Assembly (NCBI RefSeq): GCF_035594765.1
Contig: NW_026943819.1
Span: forward strand, 1,054,001-1,118,000
Source of the DNA: Anolis carolinensis
Lineage: Eukaryota
DNA: 64,000 bases
Direction of reading: 5' to 3'
Positions within the stretch are counted from its first letter, which is position 1; each line of letters opens with the position of its first letter. A program made the translations under genes and the position numbers. Under the pieces are notes generated by a model, which made no database searches, was not told where the DNA came from, and saw only the letters and a list, made by a program, of their open reading frames with translations. This document shows, piece by piece, positions 1,125-64,000 of this stretch.

Positions 1125-1800
1125 TTGTGCCTTCGTGACTCTGGGGTCTTTGGGCTTCAGAGCTTGAGGTCCTCCAAACTCCCACAATGGCCTTCGTCTA
1201 GGACTCCAGTCCTCTTGCACTTCAGAGCTTGAGGTCCTCCAAACTCCTACAAAATCCCACAGTGGCCTTTCTTTCTTCTGTGACTCCAACACTCTTGGGC
1301 TTCAGAGCTTGAGGTCCTCCAAACTCCTACAAAATCCCACAGTGGCCTTTCTTTCTTCTATGACTCCAACACTCTTGGGCAGTGGTTCTCAACTTGGGGT
1401 CCTCAGATGTTTTTGGCCTACAACTCCCAGAAATCCCAGCCAGTTTACCAGTTGTTAGGATTTCTGGGAGTTGAAGGCCAGAAACATCTGGGGACCCCAG
1501 GTTGAGAACCACTGCTCTTGGTATTCTAAGGTTGAGGTCCTCCAAACTCCCATGGAATTCCCACAATGGCCTTCTATGACTCCAACCCTCTTGAGATTCC
1601 AAGGTTGAGGTCCTACAAACTCCCATGGAATTCCCACAATGGCCTTCTATGACTCCAACCCTCTTGAGATTCCAAGGTTGAGGTCCTACAAACTCCCACA
1701 GAATCCCACAATGGCTTTTCTTTCTTTTTTTCTATGACTCCAACCCTCTTGGGTTTCAGAGCTTGAGGTCCTCCAAAATTCCCATAAAATCCCACAATGG
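1125..1800. repeat. ~60-70 bp tandem repeat immediately after the APOA4 stop codon
   Basis: Recurring unit tgactccaaccctcttg...ttgaggtcctccaaactccc...cccacaatggcctt. Confidence 0.85.
1380..1514. mobile_element. hAT-type MITE
   Basis: TIRs CAGTGGTTCTCAAC...GTTGAGAACCACTG; 8-bp TSD ctcttggg/ctcttggt. Confidence 0.85.
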
Positions 1801-2634: not shown

Positions 2635-2856
2635 GTTTGTTTGCTCAGCTCTCCAAACACAGGAAGGAGCCCCTCGGTGCCAAAGGCCTCGGTGGCGTCC
2701 AGCAAAAGCTCTTGTTTACCGGCCAGACCTCGGAAGAGGTCAGAGTCTGCGCAGCCCACAAAGTCCAGATTGCGGCCTCTCTCGGCACAGCCATCAGCCC
2801 ACCGTGGGTGTCTGTCTTCCCTGGAGCTGACCACTGACCGCTGACCTTTCCCCAGC
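2635..2856. promoter_or_regulatory. Putative liver/intestine enhancer (FOXA, HNF4 and tandem DR1 motifs)
   Basis: TGTTTGC 2638-2644; TGTTTAC 2713-2719; AGGTCAgAGTCTG from 2737; CAAAGTCCA 2759-2767; minus-strand TGGGGA-a-AGGTCA-g-CGGTCA-g-TGGTCA 2828-2854. Confidence 0.5.
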
Positions 2857-3030
2857 TCGCCCTCTCCATGGCTTTCCTACAAATTGCCCCATTGGCAGCT
2901 AAGCAAGGCCGGATCTGGTTAGGATAAGGAAGAAGTCCAAACTCCTGCCAGGCAGGAAAAGCACAATCAAAGCCCCCCTGACAGATGGCCATCCAGCCTC
3001 TGCTTAACAAATAATAATAATAATAATAGT

Positions 3031-3490
3031 AGTATTGGAAAATGAACATGCAAAGATACTGTGAGATTTCCGAATCCAGACTGACAAAGTTCTGGAACAC
3101 AACACACCAGACATCACAGTTGTGGAAAAGAAAAAGTTTTGGATCATTGATGTTGCCATCCCAGGTGACAGTCGCATTGACGAAAAACAACAGGAAAAAC
3201 TCAGCCACTCTCAGGACCTCAAGATTGAACTGCAAAGACTCTGGCAGAAACCAGTGCAGGTGGTCCCGGTGGTGATCGGCACACTGGGTGCCATGCCAAA
3301 AGATCTCAGCCGGCATTTGGAAACCATAGACATTGACAAAATTACGATCTGCCAACTGCAAAAGGCCACCCTACTGGGATCTGCAGCATCATCCGAAAAT
3401 ACATCACACAGTCCTAGACACTTGGGAAGTGTTCGACTTGTGGTTTTGTGATACGAAATCCAGCATATCTATCTTGTTTGCTGTGTCATA
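3031..3490 (+). mobile_element. 5'-truncated R4/Dong-clade non-LTR retrotransposon (REL endonuclease end)
   Basis: [42 protein letters not shown] is a PD-(D/E)xK-type REL motif; flanked by (TAA)n on both sides. Confidence 0.85.
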
Positions 3491-7773: not shown

Positions 7774-10700
7774 TAGGGATGTGGCAGCAAGCTTTCCTCC
7801 ATAATAACAATATAATACTGTGACTGGGCTTTTCTAAATAATAATAATATAGGGCTGTAACAGTGAGCTTTCCTCAACAATGACAACAACAACAACAATA
7901 ATAAAGGACTGCGACGGTGGATTTTTCTAAATAATATTAGGCTGTGACAGGGAGCTTTCCTCCATAATAATGATAGTAATAATAATGATACAGGGCTGTG
8001 ACAGTGAGGAACTGTGGGAGTTGAAGTCCAAAACACCTGGAGGGAGGATGAGGTTGGCCATGCCTGGGTTATAACTATTAAGCATGTGATGAAGTGTATC
8101 CTAGAAAAACATTGGGATCTCCTCTCTATGCTCAGTCGGGGTGTTTTTTCCCCCTTGTTGGCTTGCCTTGTCCTTGGCCCCGGTTTCCCGGCTGGTATAA
8201 CCTTTCCTGTACATCATTCTCTCCAGGATATGAATAGGGAAGTGGTGAAGACTGACTGTGCCACAGCTAGAGTCCCAGAGCTAGACTTTGAAATCCCTGC
8301 TTTTTCTCAGAAGGGAGGTGGGTATCCGTGGCTGCTTTTGGTTTATCGTGGGGCAGGTGGTGGTAGCTGTGTGGCGAGGGAGCTTCTTGCACAGCGTGGG
8401 CCTCTCGCAGAAAGGGGCCGGGGCTTTGGGCTGAGGAAGGGAACGTGTTTAAGAGGGGATCGCAAGGAGGAGGCTTCTGCCGGGAGTCCCGGGTCAAATT
8501 GTAGTCAGGAATGCTTATAATTCTTTCTTTAAAATCCCAAGATTGCATAGCATTGAGCCATGGACATGGCTTTTATGTTTAGCCGCTTTGAGTCTCCTTT
8601 GGGAGAGATAAAGCAGGATATAAATATAATAATAATGATAATGATAATAATAATGCACGCAGATCCTATTATTATTATTATTACACAGCAAACAAAATAG
8701 ACATGCTGGATTTCATATCACAACATCACAAGTCGAACACTTCCCAAGTGTCTAGGACTGTGTGATGTATTTTCGGATGATGCACGCAGATCCCAGCAGG
8801 GTGGCCTTTTGCGGCTGGCAGATCGTAATTTTGTCAATGTCTATTGTTTCCAAATGCCGGCTGAGATCTTTTGGCACGGCACCCAGTGTGCCCATCACCA
8901 CCGGGACCACCTGCACTGGTTTCTGCCAGAGTCTTTGATGTTCAATCTTGAGGTCCTGATAGCGGCTGAGTTTTTCCTGTTGTTTTTCGTCAATGCGACT
9001 GTCACCTGGGATGGCAACATCAATGATCCAAACCTTTTTCTTTTCCACAACTGTGATGTCTGGTGTATTATTATTATTATTATTATTATACATTACACAG
9101 TCCTAAACACTTGGGAAGTGTTCGACTTGTGATTTTGTGATACGAAATCCAGCATATCGATCTTGTTTGCTGTGTCAGACTATGTCATTGTGTCAATAAT
9201 AATAATATAGTGATATAGATGATGTCCCTCAAATAGGAGCTCCAGGTGCTGTTAAAGCAGTTTCCCCTTTGGCTTTACCATATTACGCAAATCTAAGTCA
9301 CACCCCAAATTTTGGGAAGGTAATTTAGCCAAGAAAGGTGACCACTAGATTCGAGTAAATACGATAATTGAGATTCAAACATACACACTTTGCAAACTGA
9401 TAGGATACAAGCACCGAAACAGATCCAAGTACTGCCTGTTAGGGTTTGATATCTGATAGTTGGGACTGGGATAGGAGGGAGAAAAGGGAATGGCAGGTGG
9501 AAGAGGCGTCAAATGCACATGGTTGAGTCCTTGCAGAGGCTCTGAAGGCTCCTCTTCACATCGGTCTCATTGTGGGCCATCTAATGCCAGCGTACCCTGC
9601 GGCAACCCATCCCCACCTGTGAGAGCCAGCAAATGTCCTTGTTTCTAATCGTAGCGGCCGTTGTGTCAACCAGAGTAAAAGAGCAAAACCGCCGGGTGTG
9701 ATAATGGGGTAGTAATGCCTGCGGTTTCTTCCTCTTCCCAGTTCTTACCACTCTTGAAGGGCTCATCGACAGAGCCGTTGCAGGGCTGGAGCAGGACCAG
9801 CCGAGACGCCGGGTAAGTGGCTTATCGGGCGTCTAGAGGCCCTTCTTAAATTAGAAAGCAACCATTTCTTGAGCTAATTGTAAGACCCATAGGCAGCAGA
9901 ACAGTAGGTAGACCCCATCTGTAGGGAGAGATACACTGGCCTGGCATTCAGCCGCCGATGTTGCTCTTGGCTGCAGTTTGCAAAGGCTGAAAGCTACTGC
10001 TGTTGCTTCTTGTTGGTGACAGGAAACAGATGCAGCCCTGGCTGAAAAGATTGACGGGTTCGTCTCCAAGTTGAAGCGCTTGAAGGAAGTGGATTCACAC
10101 TTCACTTTTGTAAGTCCCTCCTGGGAACGGTGTGGCCTGTGCAAGCGTTCCCTGCTAAAGTGAGACGCATGATCCCAAGGCCCCATTTCCCCATTTCTCC
10201 CTGCTAGATTCTAGACGACCCCTCAGGAAACAGCTTTGTGGAGAACCCTCGGGCCCCGCTGCGAGATGAAGCCCTGGTGGTCACCCACTACTGGAGGACG
10301 GCTCAGCAGGCGGCCATGCTGGGCCTCGAGGTGACTGGGAAGGGCAGCCTGGGTGTGAGGGACTGGAAGGTGTCCATTGGAGGGCCACTAAAAGGATCGA
10401 AGCTCTGGAGACCAGGAATACTCCCTCTGAGGAGCGCCTTAAAGAGCTGGGTCTGTTTAGCCTGCAAAAGAGAAGGTGGAGAGGAGACAGGAGAGGGGCC
10501 ATGTATACATATAAATATATATATAATAATCACTAGCTGTGCTCGGCCACGCGTTGCTGTGGCGAAGTCTGGTGGTATGGGAAATAAAGTATTGAGGAAT
10601 TGGTGGTAGTTAAGGTAAAGGGTCATGTTTATATTGGATAAGTGGGACTCCACTGTATATTTATAATCTTATATTATCTGCTTAGAACTGGATGATATGA

Positions 10701-13017: not shown

Positions 13018-13440
13018 TTATTATGACACAGCAAACAAGATAGATATGCTGCATTTCGTATCACAAAATCACAAGCCGAACACTTCCCAAGTGTCTAGGA
13101 CTGTGTGATGTATTTTCAGATTATTATTATTATTATTATTATTACTACTATTATTTTATTATGACACAGCAAACAAGATAGACATGCTGCATTTCGTATC
13201 ACAAAATCACAAGTCGAACTCTTCCCAAGTGTCTAGGACTGTGTGATGTATTTTTGGATAATGCGCACAGATCCCAGTCGGGTGGCCTTTTGCAGTTGGC
13301 AGGTCATAATTTTGTCAATGCCTATTGTTTCCAAATGCCGGCTGAGATCTTTTGGCATGGCACCCAGTGTGCCCATCACCACTGGGACCACCTGCACTGG
13401 TTTCTGCCAGAGTCTTTGAAGTTCAATCTTGAGGTCCTGA

Positions 13441-13488
<48 letters not shown>

Positions 13489-13826
13489 GTTTTTATGCCC
13501 TGCATTATCTCTTCTGAAGGATACTCAAAGCGGCTTCCATTAAAAGTATGACCACACAAATTTATATATGCAAACATGAAACCAAAATTAAACATTATTT
13601 GGGTTTGAGAAGCAGTGCAAGGGAAGGGAGAGAGGTGGCCTTGCACTGTTGTATCGTTACCTGGAGTTTCTGGTTCTCTTTCTACCTGCAGAACACCTAC
13701 GCTCCCGAGGAAGACCCCGAGATGGCTGTGGAGCGCTACGAGCGGTGCTTTGAGCAGAACGAGGAGCTGGGCCTGAACGACATGAAGACGGAGGGCTACG
13801 CGGATGAGGCCTCTCCCCAGCGGTAG
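5254..13826 (+). CDS. ZPR1: Zinc finger protein ZPR1, 14 coding exons
   Basis: Exons 5254-5412, 6752-6913, 8227-8317, 9742-9812, 10023-10109, 10208-10330, 11198-11251, 11352-11418, 11726-11796, 11881-11970, 12188-12298, 12397-12483, 12639-12704, 13692-13826, all GT-AG and in frame. Two C4 fingers (CMAC..CSHC; CPEC..CEAC) and C-terminus [20 protein letters not shown] at 13897-13902. Confidence 0.96.
5570..6516. repeat. Compound minisatellite tgtgttgggatgtgacagtgggctttc + (AAT)n
   Basis: About 20 copies of a ~27-bp core separated by variable AAT tracts, ZPR1 intron 1. Confidence 0.9.
7110..8066. mobile_element. hAT MITE whose interior is filled by a ctgtgacagt-core minisatellite
   Basis: Ends caggcacgggccaac.../...gttggccatgcctg; degenerate TSD ggctatca/ggttataa; array at 7165-8008. 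Confidence 0.65.
8684..9066 (-). mobile_element. R4/Dong retrotransposon 3' fragment (a second 3' end lies on + at ~9094-9195)
   Basis: ORF 8752-9093 [24 protein letters not shown]...IIRKYITQS; TAA/TTA tracts at the junctions. Confidence 0.85.
10533..11168 (-). mobile_element. Non-autonomous Helitron
   Basis: Minus strand A|TCTATATA... 5' end; 3' GC-rich stem gccacagcaacgcgtggc then CTAG|T; no TSD. Confidence 0.75.
11419..11725 (+). other. U12-type (minor spliceosome) GT-AG intron of ZPR1
   Basis: 5' splice site GTATCCTTT; branch site TTCCTTGAC 11705-11713, about 10 nt before the AG; no long polypyrimidine tract. Confidence 0.9.
12873..13440 (-). mobile_element. Stack of three R4/Dong 3' ends separated by (TTA)n
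   Basis: tgacacagcaaacaagatag...ttcccaagtgtctaggactgtgtgatg occurs three times. Confidence 0.85.
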
Positions 13827-26159: not shown

Positions 26160-26409
26160 GTGAGTCCTGGCACGTCTGGGGGGGGGAGGGGGTGATGGCC
26201 AAGGCGGGTGGCACGGGGCAGTGCATGATACCTGCTTGACAGGTCTGTTGGGATATGGGTCTAGTATTATCATCCCAATGATAATGCAGATGTTGCCTTT
26301 CAGCATGCGCAGACCAACTTTGGCCTGGCGGGTGTTTTGGACTTCAACTCCCACCATCCCTAACAGCTGGAAGGCATGGTGGGAGTTGGAGTCCAAAACA
26401 CCTGGGATT

Positions 26410-26461
<52 letters not shown>

Positions 26462-27123
26462 GGGTTGCTGTATGTTTTCCGGGCTGTATGGCTATGTTCC
26501 AGAAATATTCTCTCGTTCGACTTGTGATTTTGTGATATGAAATCCAGCATATCTATCTTGTTTGCTGTGTCATAATAATGATAATAATAATGGGGTTGTA
26601 TGTTTTCCGGGCTGTAATGCCATGTTCCAGAAGTATTCTCTCCTGACGTTTCGCCCACATCTATGGCAGGCATATAATAATAATAATACTAATAATAATA
26701 ATAGTTTGAGGAGGCTAAGTGGCTGCCCGAGAACAACTGCCCAGCTCTTGTCTGTCCAGTGTCTGCAAACAGTTTATGGGCTAGCAAAGCATCAGTTGGT
26801 GTTGTTGACGACCATCAAGCCCACTTCAGATGAAGGGCACTGAGTGAGCGAGAGACTCCAAGAGATCCCATCATCCACAGCATTCTCCCTCTTGCCAAGC
26901 GCGAGTGCATGTCCCATCCAGCCGTGCCTTCTCATGGCTTGGCCAAACGGCAGCCACCTCAGTTGAGTCATCTTCCGTTTCTTGTTTATTACGCGGAGAG
27001 CCATGGTTGTGCAACCTGGAAACTTTCCATTTGTAGGAGGAAAAGGATAGGTAGGTAGGTAGGTAGATAGGAGGATTAGGTAGGTAGGTTGATAGAAGAT
27101 GGCTGGAAAGGTAAATAGAACAG

Positions 27124-27186
<63 letters not shown>

Positions 27187-27414
27187 GGTAGGTAGATATG
27201 GCCGCACCTAGATTAGATTGCAGGCTGTGAGGCATCGTGAGAGTCGGAGTCCAAAACACCTAGAGGACCGAAATTGGCCCACGCCTGGATTAGATTGTAG
27301 ACTGTCAGGCATTGTGGGAATTGGAGTCCAAAACCAGGAGTCTCCTTGTGGATGGTATAAATCAACAACAATAATAATAGTCTGGGGAGGCTGCCCGACA
27401 ACAACTGCTAGGCT

Positions 27415-27597
27415 GTCGTCGAAGGCTTTTGTGGCCGGGATTACAGGGTTGTAATCAGAACCCTGTAATCACAATCTCAGGGTTGTAATCACAATTACCT
27501 CACAACCTCCGAGGATGCCTGCCATAGATGTGGGTGAAATGTCAGGAGAGAATACTTCTGGAACATGACCATACAGCCCGGAAAACATACAACAAAC
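27415..27597 (+). mobile_element. Penelope terminal-repeat fragment with a mutated hammerhead motif (a truncated copy lies on - at ~26592-26673)
   Basis: cctCCGAGGAtgcctgccatagatgtgggtGAAATGTCagg, homologous to 49287-49327. Confidence 0.7.
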
Positions 27598-28225: not shown

Positions 28226-34354
<6,129 letters not shown>

Positions 34355-47888: not shown

Positions 47889-48812
47889 CTGATCCTTGCA
47901 GCCCAGGGGCAAGCCATCAGAACAAATGCAATTCAGGCCAAGATCAAAAAATCAGCTGATGACCCAAAATGCAGACTGTGCAAGGAAACCGACGAAACCA
48001 TTGATCATCTCCTCAGCTGCTGTAAGAAAATCGCACAGACAGACTACAAACAGAGGCACAACTATGTGGCCCAAATGATTCATTGGAACTTATGCCTCAA
48101 GTACCACCTCCCAGCAGTAAAGAACTGGTGGGATCACAAACCTGCAAAAGTATTGGAAAATGAGCACGCAAAGATACTGTGAGACTTCCGAATCCAGACT
48201 GACAAAGTTCTGGAACACAACACACCAGACATCACAGTTGTGGGGGAAAAAAAGGTTTGGATCATTGATGTTGCCATCCCAGGTGACAGTCGCATTGACG
48301 AAAAACAACAGGAAAAACTCAGCCGCTATCAGGACCTCAAGACTGAATTTCAAAGACTCTGGCAGAAACCAGTGCAGGTGGTCCCGGTGGTGATGGGCAC
48401 ATTGGGTGCCGTGCCAAAAGATCTCAGCCGGCATTTGGAAACAATCGACATTGACAAAATCACGATCTGCCAACTGCAAAAGGCCACCCTACTGGGATCT
48501 GCACGCATCATCTGAAAATACATCACAGAGTCCTAGACACTTGGGAAGTGTTCGACTTGTGATTTTGTGATACGAAATCCAGCATATCTATCTTGTTTGT
48601 GTCATATAATGTTGTATAATAGTAATAGTAATAATAATAATAATGCTAAACTAGTGTTGAGGCCCGAGAAGCCTCTGAGGATGAGGACGGGGATCTTCTG
48701 GTTGAGCCTGGTGTTTCTGTGGTGGAAAACGGAAGAGTTTTCCAAGTCGATGGGAATGTTGTTGGGAAAAGAGGCAGTGATTCTCATGAGAATTAGCCAG
48801 GGATTGACCCTC

Positions 48813-48863
<51 letters not shown>

Positions 48864-50636
48864 ATTTTATTTCTACCCTGCCACCATCTCCCTGAGGGGA
48901 CTTGTGGCGGCCAACAAAATACAGCAAAGTGCCGCAGATAGACAATACATAAATCTGAAACTATAAAAACCACACAATTACAACCACATACATACATAAT
49001 TACAATGTGAAACATTAAAATTCATGAAATCAATTGATTGTGGAGGAGACAGGAGAGCTACCGATAGATAACCCAACATTTACAGATCAGAAGGGATTGT
49101 GTGAAACAGAAACAAACTCAATGTGTTGTCGAAGGCTTTCATGGCCAGAATCACAGGGTTGTTGTATGTCTTTCGGGCTGTGTGGCCATGTTCCAGAAGC
49201 ATTCTCTCCTGACGTTTCGCCCACATCTATGGCAGGCATCCTCAGAGGTTGTGAGGTATGGAATACCTCACAACCATACCTCACAACCTCTGAGGATGGC
49301 TGCCATAGATGTGGGCGAAACGTCAGGAGAGAATGCTTCTGGAACATGGCCACACAGCCCGAAAGACATACAACAACCCAGAAACAAACTCGTTATTCCC
49401 AGAGACTGAAGGATAAACAAAGGGAACCCAGGTGTGGGAACGGGTGGTGTCACGGGCAAGAGTGAGTCTTCTTAAGGTCTCCAATACCTTTCCAAGCTGG
49501 TGAGGCCCGTCCACGGTTTTGCCGTCGTCGTCTGGACCCCAACTGCAAAGAGAGGACCCCAAAACAACAGGCATAAAACTTGGAGTCCAACACGGAGGAA
49601 GCGTGATAATGCCACATGGATTGAGGCTTGTTTGCTGCCCCGACTGACCTGCAGCTGTAGATGTCGTTGATCTGGTAATGCTTGTTGAAAGCAACGGCCT
49701 CCATGCTGTCCGTGAGCGGCCCGTCCAGCACCCGGATCCCTGCGGAGGAAGGAAGGAGCGGGGCGAATGGGTCCCACCCTCAAATGGGACACGGGCAAAG
49801 CGAGACCCCCACCCAGTGACATCCAGGAGGGACCACGATATGCCACAGTGACCAAACCAAGCTAAAAGTATGGGCAGAAGAGGGTCGGATATGGCTCGTG
49901 GTTATGGGCGTTATCTCACGGAGGGAATTCTCTATTGAAAGGGGAAGGGGATGCTGCCCCCTGGTGTGCAGAGCAGGGGCTGCAGCCTCCTCTTGCCTTC
50001 TTGGGGGCTCTCCAAAGGGGCCCAGTGGGGGGGGGGAGGGGGCGTACCTGCGATGCGGCTCCCGTAGGCGACTCCGACGGCGCAGAAGCTGTTGTTGGAG
50101 ACGGCGGCGATCTCCCCGGCGCAGCGGGTGCCGTGGTGGTTGCCGTTCTCCTCGTCCGGGTGCGGCATGGGGTCCGGGTCATCCGAGTTCAGGTCGTAGC
50201 TGCCTTCCGGGCTCTGGGGGGACAGCGGGACGGGGCTGCCGTCAGGGCCACCCTCCTGTCNNNNNNNNNNNNNNNNNNNNNNNNNNNNNNNNNNNNNNNN
50301 NNNNNNNNNNNNNNNNNNNNNNNNNNNNNNNNNNNNNNNNNNNNNNNNNNNNNNNNNNNNNNNNNNNNNNNNNNNNNNNNNNNNNNNNNNNNNNNNNNNN
50401 NNNNNNNNNNNNNNNNNNNNNNNNNNNNNNNNNNNNNNNNNNNNNNNNNTACATACATACATGGATGNNNNNNNNNNNNNNNNNNNNNNNNNNNNNNNNN
50501 NNNNNNNNNNNNNNNNNNNNNNNNNNNNNNNNNNNNNNNNNNNNNNNNNNNNNNNNNNNNNNNNNNNNNNNNNNNNNNNNNNNNNNNNNNNNNNNNNNNN
50601 NNNNNNNNNNNNNNNNNNNNNNNNNNNTAGATACTG

Positions 50637-53799: not shown

Positions 53800-54620
53800 G
53801 GGGGGGTGAGGACTACAACTCCCACCATCCCCTGGCTGGAGCTCTCATGCAGCTCACGTTGCAGCTACAATTGCAGGGATGATGGGCCTTTGTGTGTGTG
53901 GAGTCCTTCCCTTTTAGGTAGAGGACTGCAGCTCCCATCATCCAGTACTATCATGAAGCCCAGTAGTACAAGGATGATGGGCCTTTGAGTGTGTGGAGTC
54001 CTTCCCTTTTAAATAGAGGACTGCATCTCCCATCATCCAGTGACTGTGTGCTACTATCATGCAGCCCAGTAGTACAAGGATGATGGGCCTTTGAGTGTGT
54101 GTGTGGATAGAGGACTGCAGCTCCCATCATCCAGTACTATCATGAAGCCCAGTAGTACAAGGATGATGGGCCTTTGAGTGTGTGGAGTCCTTCCCTTTTA
54201 AATAGAGGACTGCATCTCCCATCATCCAGTGACTGTGCGCTACTATCATGCAGCCCAGTAGTACAAGGACGATGGGCCTTTGAGTGGGGAGTGCTTCCCT
54301 TCTAAGCTGAGCACTACAACTCCCACCATCCCCAGGCTGGAGCTATCATGCAGCTCACTGTTGCAACTATATTGCAGGGATGATGGGCCTTTGAGTGTTT
54401 GTGTGGAGTCCTTCCATTTTAGATAGAGGACTGCAGCTCCCATCATCCAGTGGCTATGCTCTACTATCATGAAGCCCAGTAGTACAAGGATGATGGACCT
54501 TTGAGTGTAGGGGGTTCTTTCCCTTTTAGACTAAGGACTGCAACTCCCATCATCCCATGCCCGTATGTATCACGTAGCTCACCTTGCAGCCGTATTGCAA
54601 GGATGATGGGCCTTTGAGTG
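53800..54620. repeat. ~100-bp tandem array containing gact(a/g)ca.ctccca(t/c)catcc
   Basis: About 8 units ending aaggatgatgggcctttgagtg. Confidence 0.85.

Positions 54621-54849: not shown

Positions 54850-64000
<9,151 letters not shown>

What the first reader, a model, noticed from the sequence alone, without database searches (positions are those of the whole stretch)
49108..49391. Inverted pair of hammerhead-ribozyme motifs in a PCSK7 intron
Seen: a 260-bp insert with a 12-bp flanking duplication and two 106-bp inverted arms ~110 bp from an exon. Each arm has CTGAGGA-stem II-GAAACGTC with a CCT/AGG stem I and one extra U after the CUGANGA box. The intact copy is in PCSK7 sense orientation. 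Known: Penelope-like elements carry minimal type-I hammerheads with a palindromic stem III, thought to cleave as dimers, and often leave inverted 5' repeats. Inference: PCSK7 pre-mRNA contains a potential self-cleaving motif together with its own antisense, a ~106-bp hairpin that could mask it and be an ADAR/Dicer substrate. The solitary copies in TAGLN intron 1 are damaged: the sense copy (27506-27546) has core changes and the antisense copy (~26640-26673) is truncated. That fits, but does not prove, selection against unmasked sense ribozymes.
Basis: partly seen in the sequence, partly recalled or inferred. Interest (0 to 1): 0.7.

Follow-up and report, generated by a model that had tools for sequence, protein, structure and literature searches.

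The report
Polymorphic Penelope stub in PCSK7 intron
This is a young, back-to-back scrap of a very common lizard jumping gene (Poseidon, a Penelope-like element), missing at this spot in some other individuals; its small self-cutting RNA motif is predicted to be locked in a long hairpin, so it is likely an ordinary passenger in the PCSK7 intron and not a switch.

Summary
In detail: a 259/260-bp insert, a 12/13-bp target duplication, 106-bp arms at 99%, and a minimal hammerhead on each strand, the intact one sense to PCSK7. It is a stub of PAc/Poseidon_Ac. The long arm differs at 2 of 142 bases from intact 846-aa RT/GIY-YIG copies, and the motif's 5' half has 23,149 exact copies. Two of four other runs hold the empty site. 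The hairpin is predicted to abolish the ribozyme fold, and the published PAc ribozyme does not cut without PAc protein. The selection idea is unsupported: core positions are changed in 13.9% of copies, controls in 16.8%; orientation bias was not tested. The layout is published, and the scan has reported it repeatedly in this and other lizard genomes. The residual interest is mechanistic: 48 of 48 TSD-bounded pairs join one arm ending near +84 to one ending near +118, and many inner ends sit near -19, behind a TATA/Inr-like site. This favours priming from both nicked strands on an RNA that starts in the pLTR.

The parts
49107..49119 (.). Left target-site duplication (13 bp; 12 if the first C is given to the arm)
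   Evidence: single copy in empty-site contigs of X2 and X8
49120..49261 (-). Long arm: PAc pLTR from -22 to +120 relative to the element's ATG, sense to the host gene
   Evidence: 2 differences in 142 from an intact element
49120..49155 (-). One-sided 'tail' (+85 to +120), ending at the published RT start site (+111 to +118)
   Evidence: PMC11167929 main text
49208..49248 (-). Intact minimal type I hammerhead; predicted cleavage between 49211 and 49210; A9-U-G10.1 is the element's start codon
49262..49273 (.). Centre junction: short fold-back duplicate of the arm's inner end (13-nt direct repeat at 49263-49275 and 49276-49288)
   Evidence: D4, I3; junctions differ between copies
49274..49379 (+). 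Short arm: PAc pLTR from -22 to +84, antisense to the host gene and transcribed first in its pre-mRNA
49287..49327 (+). Second hammerhead copy with one stem II mismatch
49379..49391 (.). Right target-site duplication
49488..49593 (-). Neighbouring host coding exon (3' part; donor GT at 49487-49486)
   Evidence: translation; this short piece alone had no Pfam hit
27414..27595 (+). Older PAc-family insertion upstream of the TAGLN coding exons: tail-only inverted arm plus sense arm -19 to +81, 12-bp duplication with one mismatch; hammerhead changes U4>C and two CpG transitions
26462..26673 (-). Two truncated PAc-family arms (+32 to +84 and +1 to +79), both lacking the CUGA box

Best explanation
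The insert is a young, polymorphic, head-to-head stub of the Penelope-like retrotransposon PAc (Poseidon_Ac), likely made in one event when both staggered nicks of the target primed reverse transcription, and its hammerheads are predicted to be inert passengers in the PCSK7 intron. Shown here: family identity, TSD, empty allele, copy number, and the fixed pairing of one +84 end with one +118 end. Shown in vitro by others (PMC11167929): PAc cuts and extends both strands, starts copying at two internal sites that bound the tail, is predicted to be a dimer, and its ribozyme does not cut without PAc protein and is not needed for insertion. Inferred: one nick primes at about +118 and the other at about +84; both cDNAs run to the RNA's 5' end near -20, a likely pLTR start site; their 3' ends anneal through 1-3 nt or short fold-backs and are filled in, leaving a 12-13-bp TSD. 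In the host pre-mRNA the antisense arm is made first and pairs with the sense arm as it emerges, so the ribozyme would not fold.
For: Family: the long arm is 98.6% identical to pLTRs of intact 846-aa ORFs with RVT_1 (E 1.6e-13) and a C-terminal GVY...YIG motif read by eye. The RNA in Fig. S1 of PMC11167929 reads the same as +30 to +125 of that copy (compared by eye). Abundance: 6,104 exact copies of a 35-mer and 23,149 of the motif's 5' half. Empty allele: X2 and X8 contigs match 49000-49119 with no difference and continue into the right flank for 34 and 43 letters; X14 and X10 were uninformative. Ends: of 90 arms, 48 end at +80 to +91, 39 at +112 to +125, 3 elsewhere. Pairs: 48 of 48 TSD-bounded pairs are short+long (34 + 14 in two samples; p 4e-15 against a 50:50 draw), TSD mode 12-13. 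Two multi-kb inverted arrays end the same way (L103/L104, L106). In 9 of 26 adjacent pairs the +84 arm reaches further upstream than the +118 arm, so it cannot be a fold-back copy of it. Inner ends: 30 of 90 arms end at -16 to -25, mode -19, solitary copies among them, 31 nt behind a TATA-like run. Masking. No second intact sense motif on the - strand of the readable window to act as dimer partner.
Against: No insertion intermediate was seen; the mechanism is read from end products. The +84 start site is inferred from the paper's text (two sites bounding a 30-40-nt tail), since Fig. 1G could not be viewed. The -19 peak is weaker in the second, older sample: 11 of 47 arms at -16 to -25 and 9 of 47 at -28 to -40; paired arms are not independent, and a TA/AT microhomology lies at that spot. 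One long/long neighbour pair (L208) was seen and dropped because it has no TSD. The filled allele in X1 is bridged by fewer than the tool's 31 letters on the insert side, and X1 may be the assembly's own source. 1,976 window bases read N and could hide another copy. No RNA evidence at this locus.
Confidence: 0.82

Rival explanations
1. Same passenger, different origin: one cDNA self-primes (folds back) and copies itself, or an antisense template self-primes, as proposed for Adineta vaga Penelope; the endonuclease then trims one arm to give the one-sided tail.
For: PMC3846280 (passages) explains head-to-head palindromes by self-priming; PMC8557442 (passages) attributes the tail to endonuclease resolution. 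Arms mostly share subfamily markers (five positions: 34 both-variant, 19 discordant, 182 both-reference). 12 of 26 adjacent pairs have matched inner ends. This insert's centre holds a short fold-back.
Against: The +118 arm always holds sequence that the +84 arm lacks, and in 9 of 26 adjacent pairs the +84 arm also holds sequence that the +118 arm lacks. In vitro both strands are extended from both start sites. Some older pairs differ at two or more markers (L213, L217).
Confidence: 0.12
2. One reading: the sense hammerhead can cut PCSK7 pre-mRNA, the antisense arm is what makes it tolerable, and unmasked sense copies are purged or damaged by selection.
For: The sense copy is intact and predicted to be masked; the unmasked sense TAGLN copy has a U4>C core change. 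A preprint abstract reports exclusion of tandem retrozymes from introns and exons (10.64898/2026.07.22.740005, part 1 of 5; the methods say this was done in two Xenopus species).
Against: PAc's motif shows no cleavage without protein, and no RNA-seq reads begin or end at the site. A Schistosoma minimal monomer was inactive. Stem I of the monomer has a pair probability of about 0.01. There is no core excess genome-wide, 3,737 of 26,886 against 4,671 of 27,820, though this pools orientations and intergenic copies. The window offers one sense unmasked copy.
Confidence: 0.05
3. The ~250-bp palindrome is an independently amplifying non-autonomous family (MITE- or SINE-like), copied as a unit.
For: All 40 best-scoring genome matches have the same two-arm layout and similar length (chosen by similarity, so biased).
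Against: Centre junctions differ among the 30 copies printed; arm lengths run from tens of bases to kilobases with the same outer ends; the tail falls on either side.
Confidence: 0.04
4. Passenger by origin but not neutral: the 106-bp duplex about 100 nt from a 5' splice site is edited by ADAR or slightly alters PCSK7 splicing. This can coexist with the best explanation.
For: Predicted near-perfect 106-bp stem; long intronic duplexes are general ADAR substrates (recalled).
Against: No locus-specific RNA data: only assembled contigs were available, and those of this multi-copy sequence cannot be assigned to the locus.
Confidence: 0.25

Closest known systems
PAc / Poseidon_Ac of Anolis carolinensis (Frangieh et al. 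2024, PMC11167929; parts 1-2 of 4, passages, extracted text of two supplementary PDFs; the GenBank supplement could not be read)
   Same: Same sequence family; ORF starts at hammerhead stem II; the long arm ends at the reported RT start site; AT-rich targets.
   Different: The paper's main text does not discuss inverted genomic pairs or TSDs ('inverted' occurs once, about a blocking dT; 'TSD' and 'duplication' not at all). This copy has no ORF beyond 40 codons.
Standard EN+ PLE layout: inverted 5'-truncated copy plus one-sided 30-40-bp tail (PMC8557442 Fig. 2 legend; Pen2a_Av in PMC3846280; D. virilis Penelope in PMC2377424; passages only)
   Same: Head-to-head pLTRs, tail on one arm only, TSD (8-10 bp in A. 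vaga), and a putative TATA and Inr inside the pLTR (A. vaga).
   Different: Here both arms are minimal (106 and 142 nt). PMC3846280 proposes self-priming, whereas the present counts favour two primed cDNAs. The D. virilis promoter is TATA-less and internal.
Minimal type I hammerheads of metazoan PLEs (Cervera and De la Pena 2014, PMC4209133; parts 1-2 of 4)
   Same: Extra nucleotide after A9, G10.1-C11.1 pair, long stem II, short stem I, palindromic stem III stub; pairs 100-700 bp apart on opposite strands were already reported in Schistosoma.
   Different: Stem I is only 3 bp as drawn; nothing else differs in kind.
L1 twin priming (recalled; seen only in search listings)
   Same: Both target strands prime cDNA synthesis, and the cDNAs join through microhomology inside a TSD.
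   Different: L1 primers copy non-overlapping parts of one RNA; here both arms cover the same sequence and start at two fixed internal sites.

Membership tests
Penelope/Poseidon EN+ PLE (PAc) | Sequence is the pLTR of an element with a single RT + C-terminal GIY-YIG ORF | tested here: met
   98.6% over 142 nt to loci with 846-aa ORFs; RVT_1. GIY-YIG motif read by eye; Pfam did not report it at E<=0.01.
Penelope/Poseidon EN+ PLE (PAc) | Tandem units forming pLTRs that overlap the ORF start | tested here: met
   2,664-2,666-bp tandem units whose ATG is the hammerhead's A9-U-G10.1
Penelope/Poseidon EN+ PLE (PAc) | Inverted 5'-truncated copy, one-sided tail, TSD | tested here: met
Penelope/Poseidon EN+ PLE (PAc) | Insertion into a previously empty site | tested here: met
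   Empty allele with one TSD copy in 2 of 4 runs
Minimal type I hammerhead | Conserved core CUGANGA / GAAA / UH with stems I and II | tested here: met
   (stem II pair probability 0.90-0.97 in the isolated - copy; stem I about 0.01)
Minimal type I hammerhead | Match to an Rfam hammerhead model | tested here: not met
   No hammerhead among 31 matches at E<=1; expected for a motif without stem III
Minimal type I hammerhead | Self-cleavage at this locus | not testable with these tools
   The family motif cleaves only with PAc protein in vitro; the hairpin is predicted to block it
Host-exapted intronic ribozyme | Fixed, conserved, single-copy, stable monomer fold | tested here: not met
   Polymorphic, more than 23,000 copies, active fold not favoured
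Non-LTR retrozyme | Head-to-tail tandem units each with a type I hammerhead | tested here: not met
   The two motifs are head-to-head on opposite strands; definition
Non-autonomous palindromic family copied as a unit | Shared centre junction and fixed length | tested here: not met
   Variable junctions and lengths

The most novel reading that the evidence does not exclude
These stubs record the whole PAc insertion reaction. A PAc dimer primes from both staggered nicks, one subunit at +118 and the other at +84, usually on RNA from one donor and perhaps on one molecule, and most templates are mRNAs that start at a TATA/Inr site about 20 nt upstream of the ATG. Because the RT start sites lie near the mRNA's 5' end, such mRNAs can only yield 105- and 140-nt cDNAs; full-length copies need read-through from an upstream unit. 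One rule would then explain the tail, the inverted copy, the TSD, the need for tandem units and the flood of short copies. The six literature searches and the passages read showed no paper stating this, but subscription papers are not searched; earlier scan notes already suggest two-strand priming.
Probability: 0.45. Interest if true: 0.55.

Novelty: already known. Interest (0 to 1): 0.2.

Why it matters
For PCSK7 it most likely matters little: it is one segregating copy among tens of thousands. Two uses remain. As a presence/absence allele about 100 nt from a splice donor, it allows a clean within-animal test of whether a PLE hairpin or hammerhead affects a host transcript. And the strict +84/+118 pairing with inner ends near -20 links the 2024 in vitro chemistry to the tandem/inverted structures that PMC8557442 describes as arising from still undefined features of the PLE cycle, which makes two-strand priming versus self-priming directly testable.

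Tried and rejected
Rfam scan: no hammerhead model hit; the miRNA-family hits over the insert are generic long-hairpin matches below their gathering scores. A 750-kb evenly spaced sample (75 stretches) gave 50 alignment pieces, too few and too old for junction work; it did show the same +84/+118 ends and several inner ends at -18 to -21. Templates cut at the hammerhead site (+29/+30) as the main source of stubs: rejected, since only 3 of 90 arms begin between +17 and +29 (the anchor at +31 would have admitted them). Editing or small RNAs: not assessable, all runs laid were assembled contigs swamped by other copies, and 'RNA' was only a guess for X10. Pfam on the C-terminal part failed on a frame slip and was not repeated. 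A genome-wide count of how far arms reach upstream was not obtained, so the -19 peak rests on two samples from the first 23 Mb of contig 1. Sample 1 used loci for all but the last 8 of the 100 matches listed, with 12 overlapping duplicates dropped (58 loci); sample 2 used 40 regions around early matches. Orientation relative to host genes was not tested, because no annotation was available. The GenBank supplement and all figures of PMC11167929 could not be seen and may bear on the position of the second start site.

Full report
Observation. The insert spans 49120-49378 between two 13-bp repeats; the arms (49156-49261, 49274-49379) are 106 nt and 99% complementary. Each arm holds a minimal hammerhead. 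The minus-strand copy is intact, and the plus-strand copy has one stem II change. The host is a subtilase gene on the minus strand and the neighbour a calponin-family gene on the plus strand; the names PCSK7 and TAGLN rest on recalled motifs and gene order. The arm ends 108 nt from the exon's donor. Rfam found no hammerhead at E<=1.

Identity. A search of the window's genome gave 2,863 candidates; the 40 scored all had the two-arm layout, a set biased by similarity. Loci in which the sequence continues past the tail contain tandem 2.66-kb units with 846-aa ORFs, and the long arm matches their pLTR at 98.6%. [quoted passage not shown] Its start codon is the A9-U-G10.1 of the hammerhead, as described for PAc (PMC11167929, parts 1-2 of 4), and the RNA in that paper's Fig. 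S1 reads the same as this family by eye. So this is a PAc stub; the host is presumably the green anole, which I did not verify. There are 6,104 exact copies of a young-subfamily 35-mer and 23,149 of the motif's 5' half.

Age and fixation. The arms differ from an intact element at 2 of 142 and 1 of 106 bases. Of four runs laid on the left flank, X2 and X8 (two studies) have contigs that match 120 bases exactly, pass one copy of the duplication and continue into the right flank; X14 and X10 were uninformative. X1 has contigs entering the insert from both sides, though by fewer than 31 letters, and may be the assembly's source. The insertion therefore segregates.

Ribozyme. The whole insert is predicted to fold into one stem of -227 kcal/mol in which the hammerhead's stem II has pair probability about 0, also in transcripts cut 3, 10 or 20 nt past the cleavage site, because the antisense arm is made first. 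In the isolated motif stem II forms (0.90-0.97) but stem I hardly does (about 0.01). No second intact sense motif lies on the minus strand of the readable window (1,976 bases are N). The published PAc motif shows no cleavage without PAc protein, is dispensable for insertion in vitro, and left no read ends in RNA-seq. A Schistosoma monomer was inactive, and opposite-strand pairs were already noted there (PMC4209133, parts 1-2 of 4).

Selection idea. A palindromic insert has one sense motif on each strand, so orientation carries no information here. The TAGLN sense copy has eight differences from the reference. Four are shared with the neighbouring copies, and of the four private ones three fall in the hammerhead, two of them CpG transitions. 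Genome-wide, six core positions are changed in 3,737 of 26,886 copies (13.9%) and six controls of like composition in 4,671 of 27,820 (16.8%). Subfamily variants may inflate the controls, and the count pools orientations, so it excludes only a strong general effect. The orientation-resolved test was not possible.

How it was made. Sample 1 (58 loci, 90 arms, taken in genome order) has outer ends at +80 to +91 in 48 arms, +112 to +125 in 39, and elsewhere in 3. The paper places RT initiation at +111 to +118 and at a second site at the other end of the tail, for both strands. All 36 head-to-head pairs in sample 1 join one short and one long arm; with a TSD required, 34 of 34 in sample 1 and 14 of 14 in an older sample 2 do. 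One long/long neighbour pair without TSD was dropped (L208). TSDs peak at 12-13 bp, and two multi-kilobase inverted arrays end the same way. Among 26 pairs with adjacent centres, inner ends match within 3 nt in 12, the short arm reaches further upstream in 9 and the long arm in 5. Since the long arm always carries the tail, neither arm can be a copy of the other in those 9, which argues against simple fold-back, the self-priming reading of PMC3846280 (passages). Arms usually share subfamily markers (34 both-variant, 19 discordant, 182 both-reference at five positions), so both normally come from one donor, but some older pairs differ at several markers; one RNA or two is not settled. Inner ends cluster at -16 to -25 in 30 of 90 arms, mode -19, against 13 in the 45 nt downstream, and solitary copies show it too. 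A TATA-like run begins 31 nt upstream of an Inr-like A at -20 (consensus recalled), and a putative TATA/Inr in a pLTR was noted in A. vaga. In sample 2 the peak is weaker: 11 of 47 arms, with 9 more at -28 to -40. A transcription start there is therefore a suggestion, not a result.

Comparison with what is known. An inverted truncated copy with a one-sided tail is the standard EN+ PLE layout (PMC8557442, PMC3846280, PMC2377424; passages). The insert meets the PAc membership tests and fails those for a retrozyme, a unit-copied palindromic family and a host-exapted ribozyme. The scan has filed the same kind of stub many times, in this genome and others, some notes with the two-strand priming idea; I had noted that idea, before the look-up, and those notes are not independent evidence. 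Six literature searches showed no paper giving the fixed +84/+118 pairing or the -20 peak, within an open-access library only.

Verdict. Real, ordinary and already explained at the level of the locus: interest 0.2. The mechanistic reading of the family (probability 0.45) would merit about 0.55.

Noticed in passing
window 49064-49119 and from 49392: The insertion sits inside an older multi-copy repeat: many unrelated contigs match this flank at 90-95%.
   Followed up: no
window 1406-1488, 26330-26403, 34083-34164: Three short hairpins match Rfam mir-5408 below its gathering score; probably ends of a palindromic repeat family.
   Followed up: no
L131:1553-2213; L230:1914-2532; L196:31-1018; L204:132-953: Head-to-tail arrays of pLTR pieces with periods of 220, 173, 153 and 315 bp. 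In L131 and L230 most units carry the hammerhead's 5' half and look like retrozyme-type tandems born from PAc.
   Followed up: no
L147:1583-1598: The centre junction of one pair holds about two telomere-type TTAGGG repeats.
   Followed up: no
L127:1602-1825: About 220 bp that does not align to the reference element lies between two arms, both preceded by a T run, inside a 14-bp TSD; possibly captured flank.
   Followed up: no
L103-L107: Several intact 846-aa PAc ORFs in tandem and inverted arrays with near-identical pLTRs, consistent with a currently active family.
   Followed up: partly
window near 2648-3370, 8701-9129, 13182-13514, 48093-48488, 63086-63334: At least five copies of another repeat with the same translated stretch and TAA-type tails; not identified.
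   Followed up: no
window 53868-54614: A tandem repeat upstream of the subtilase gene, seen as recurring translated motifs.
   Followed up: no
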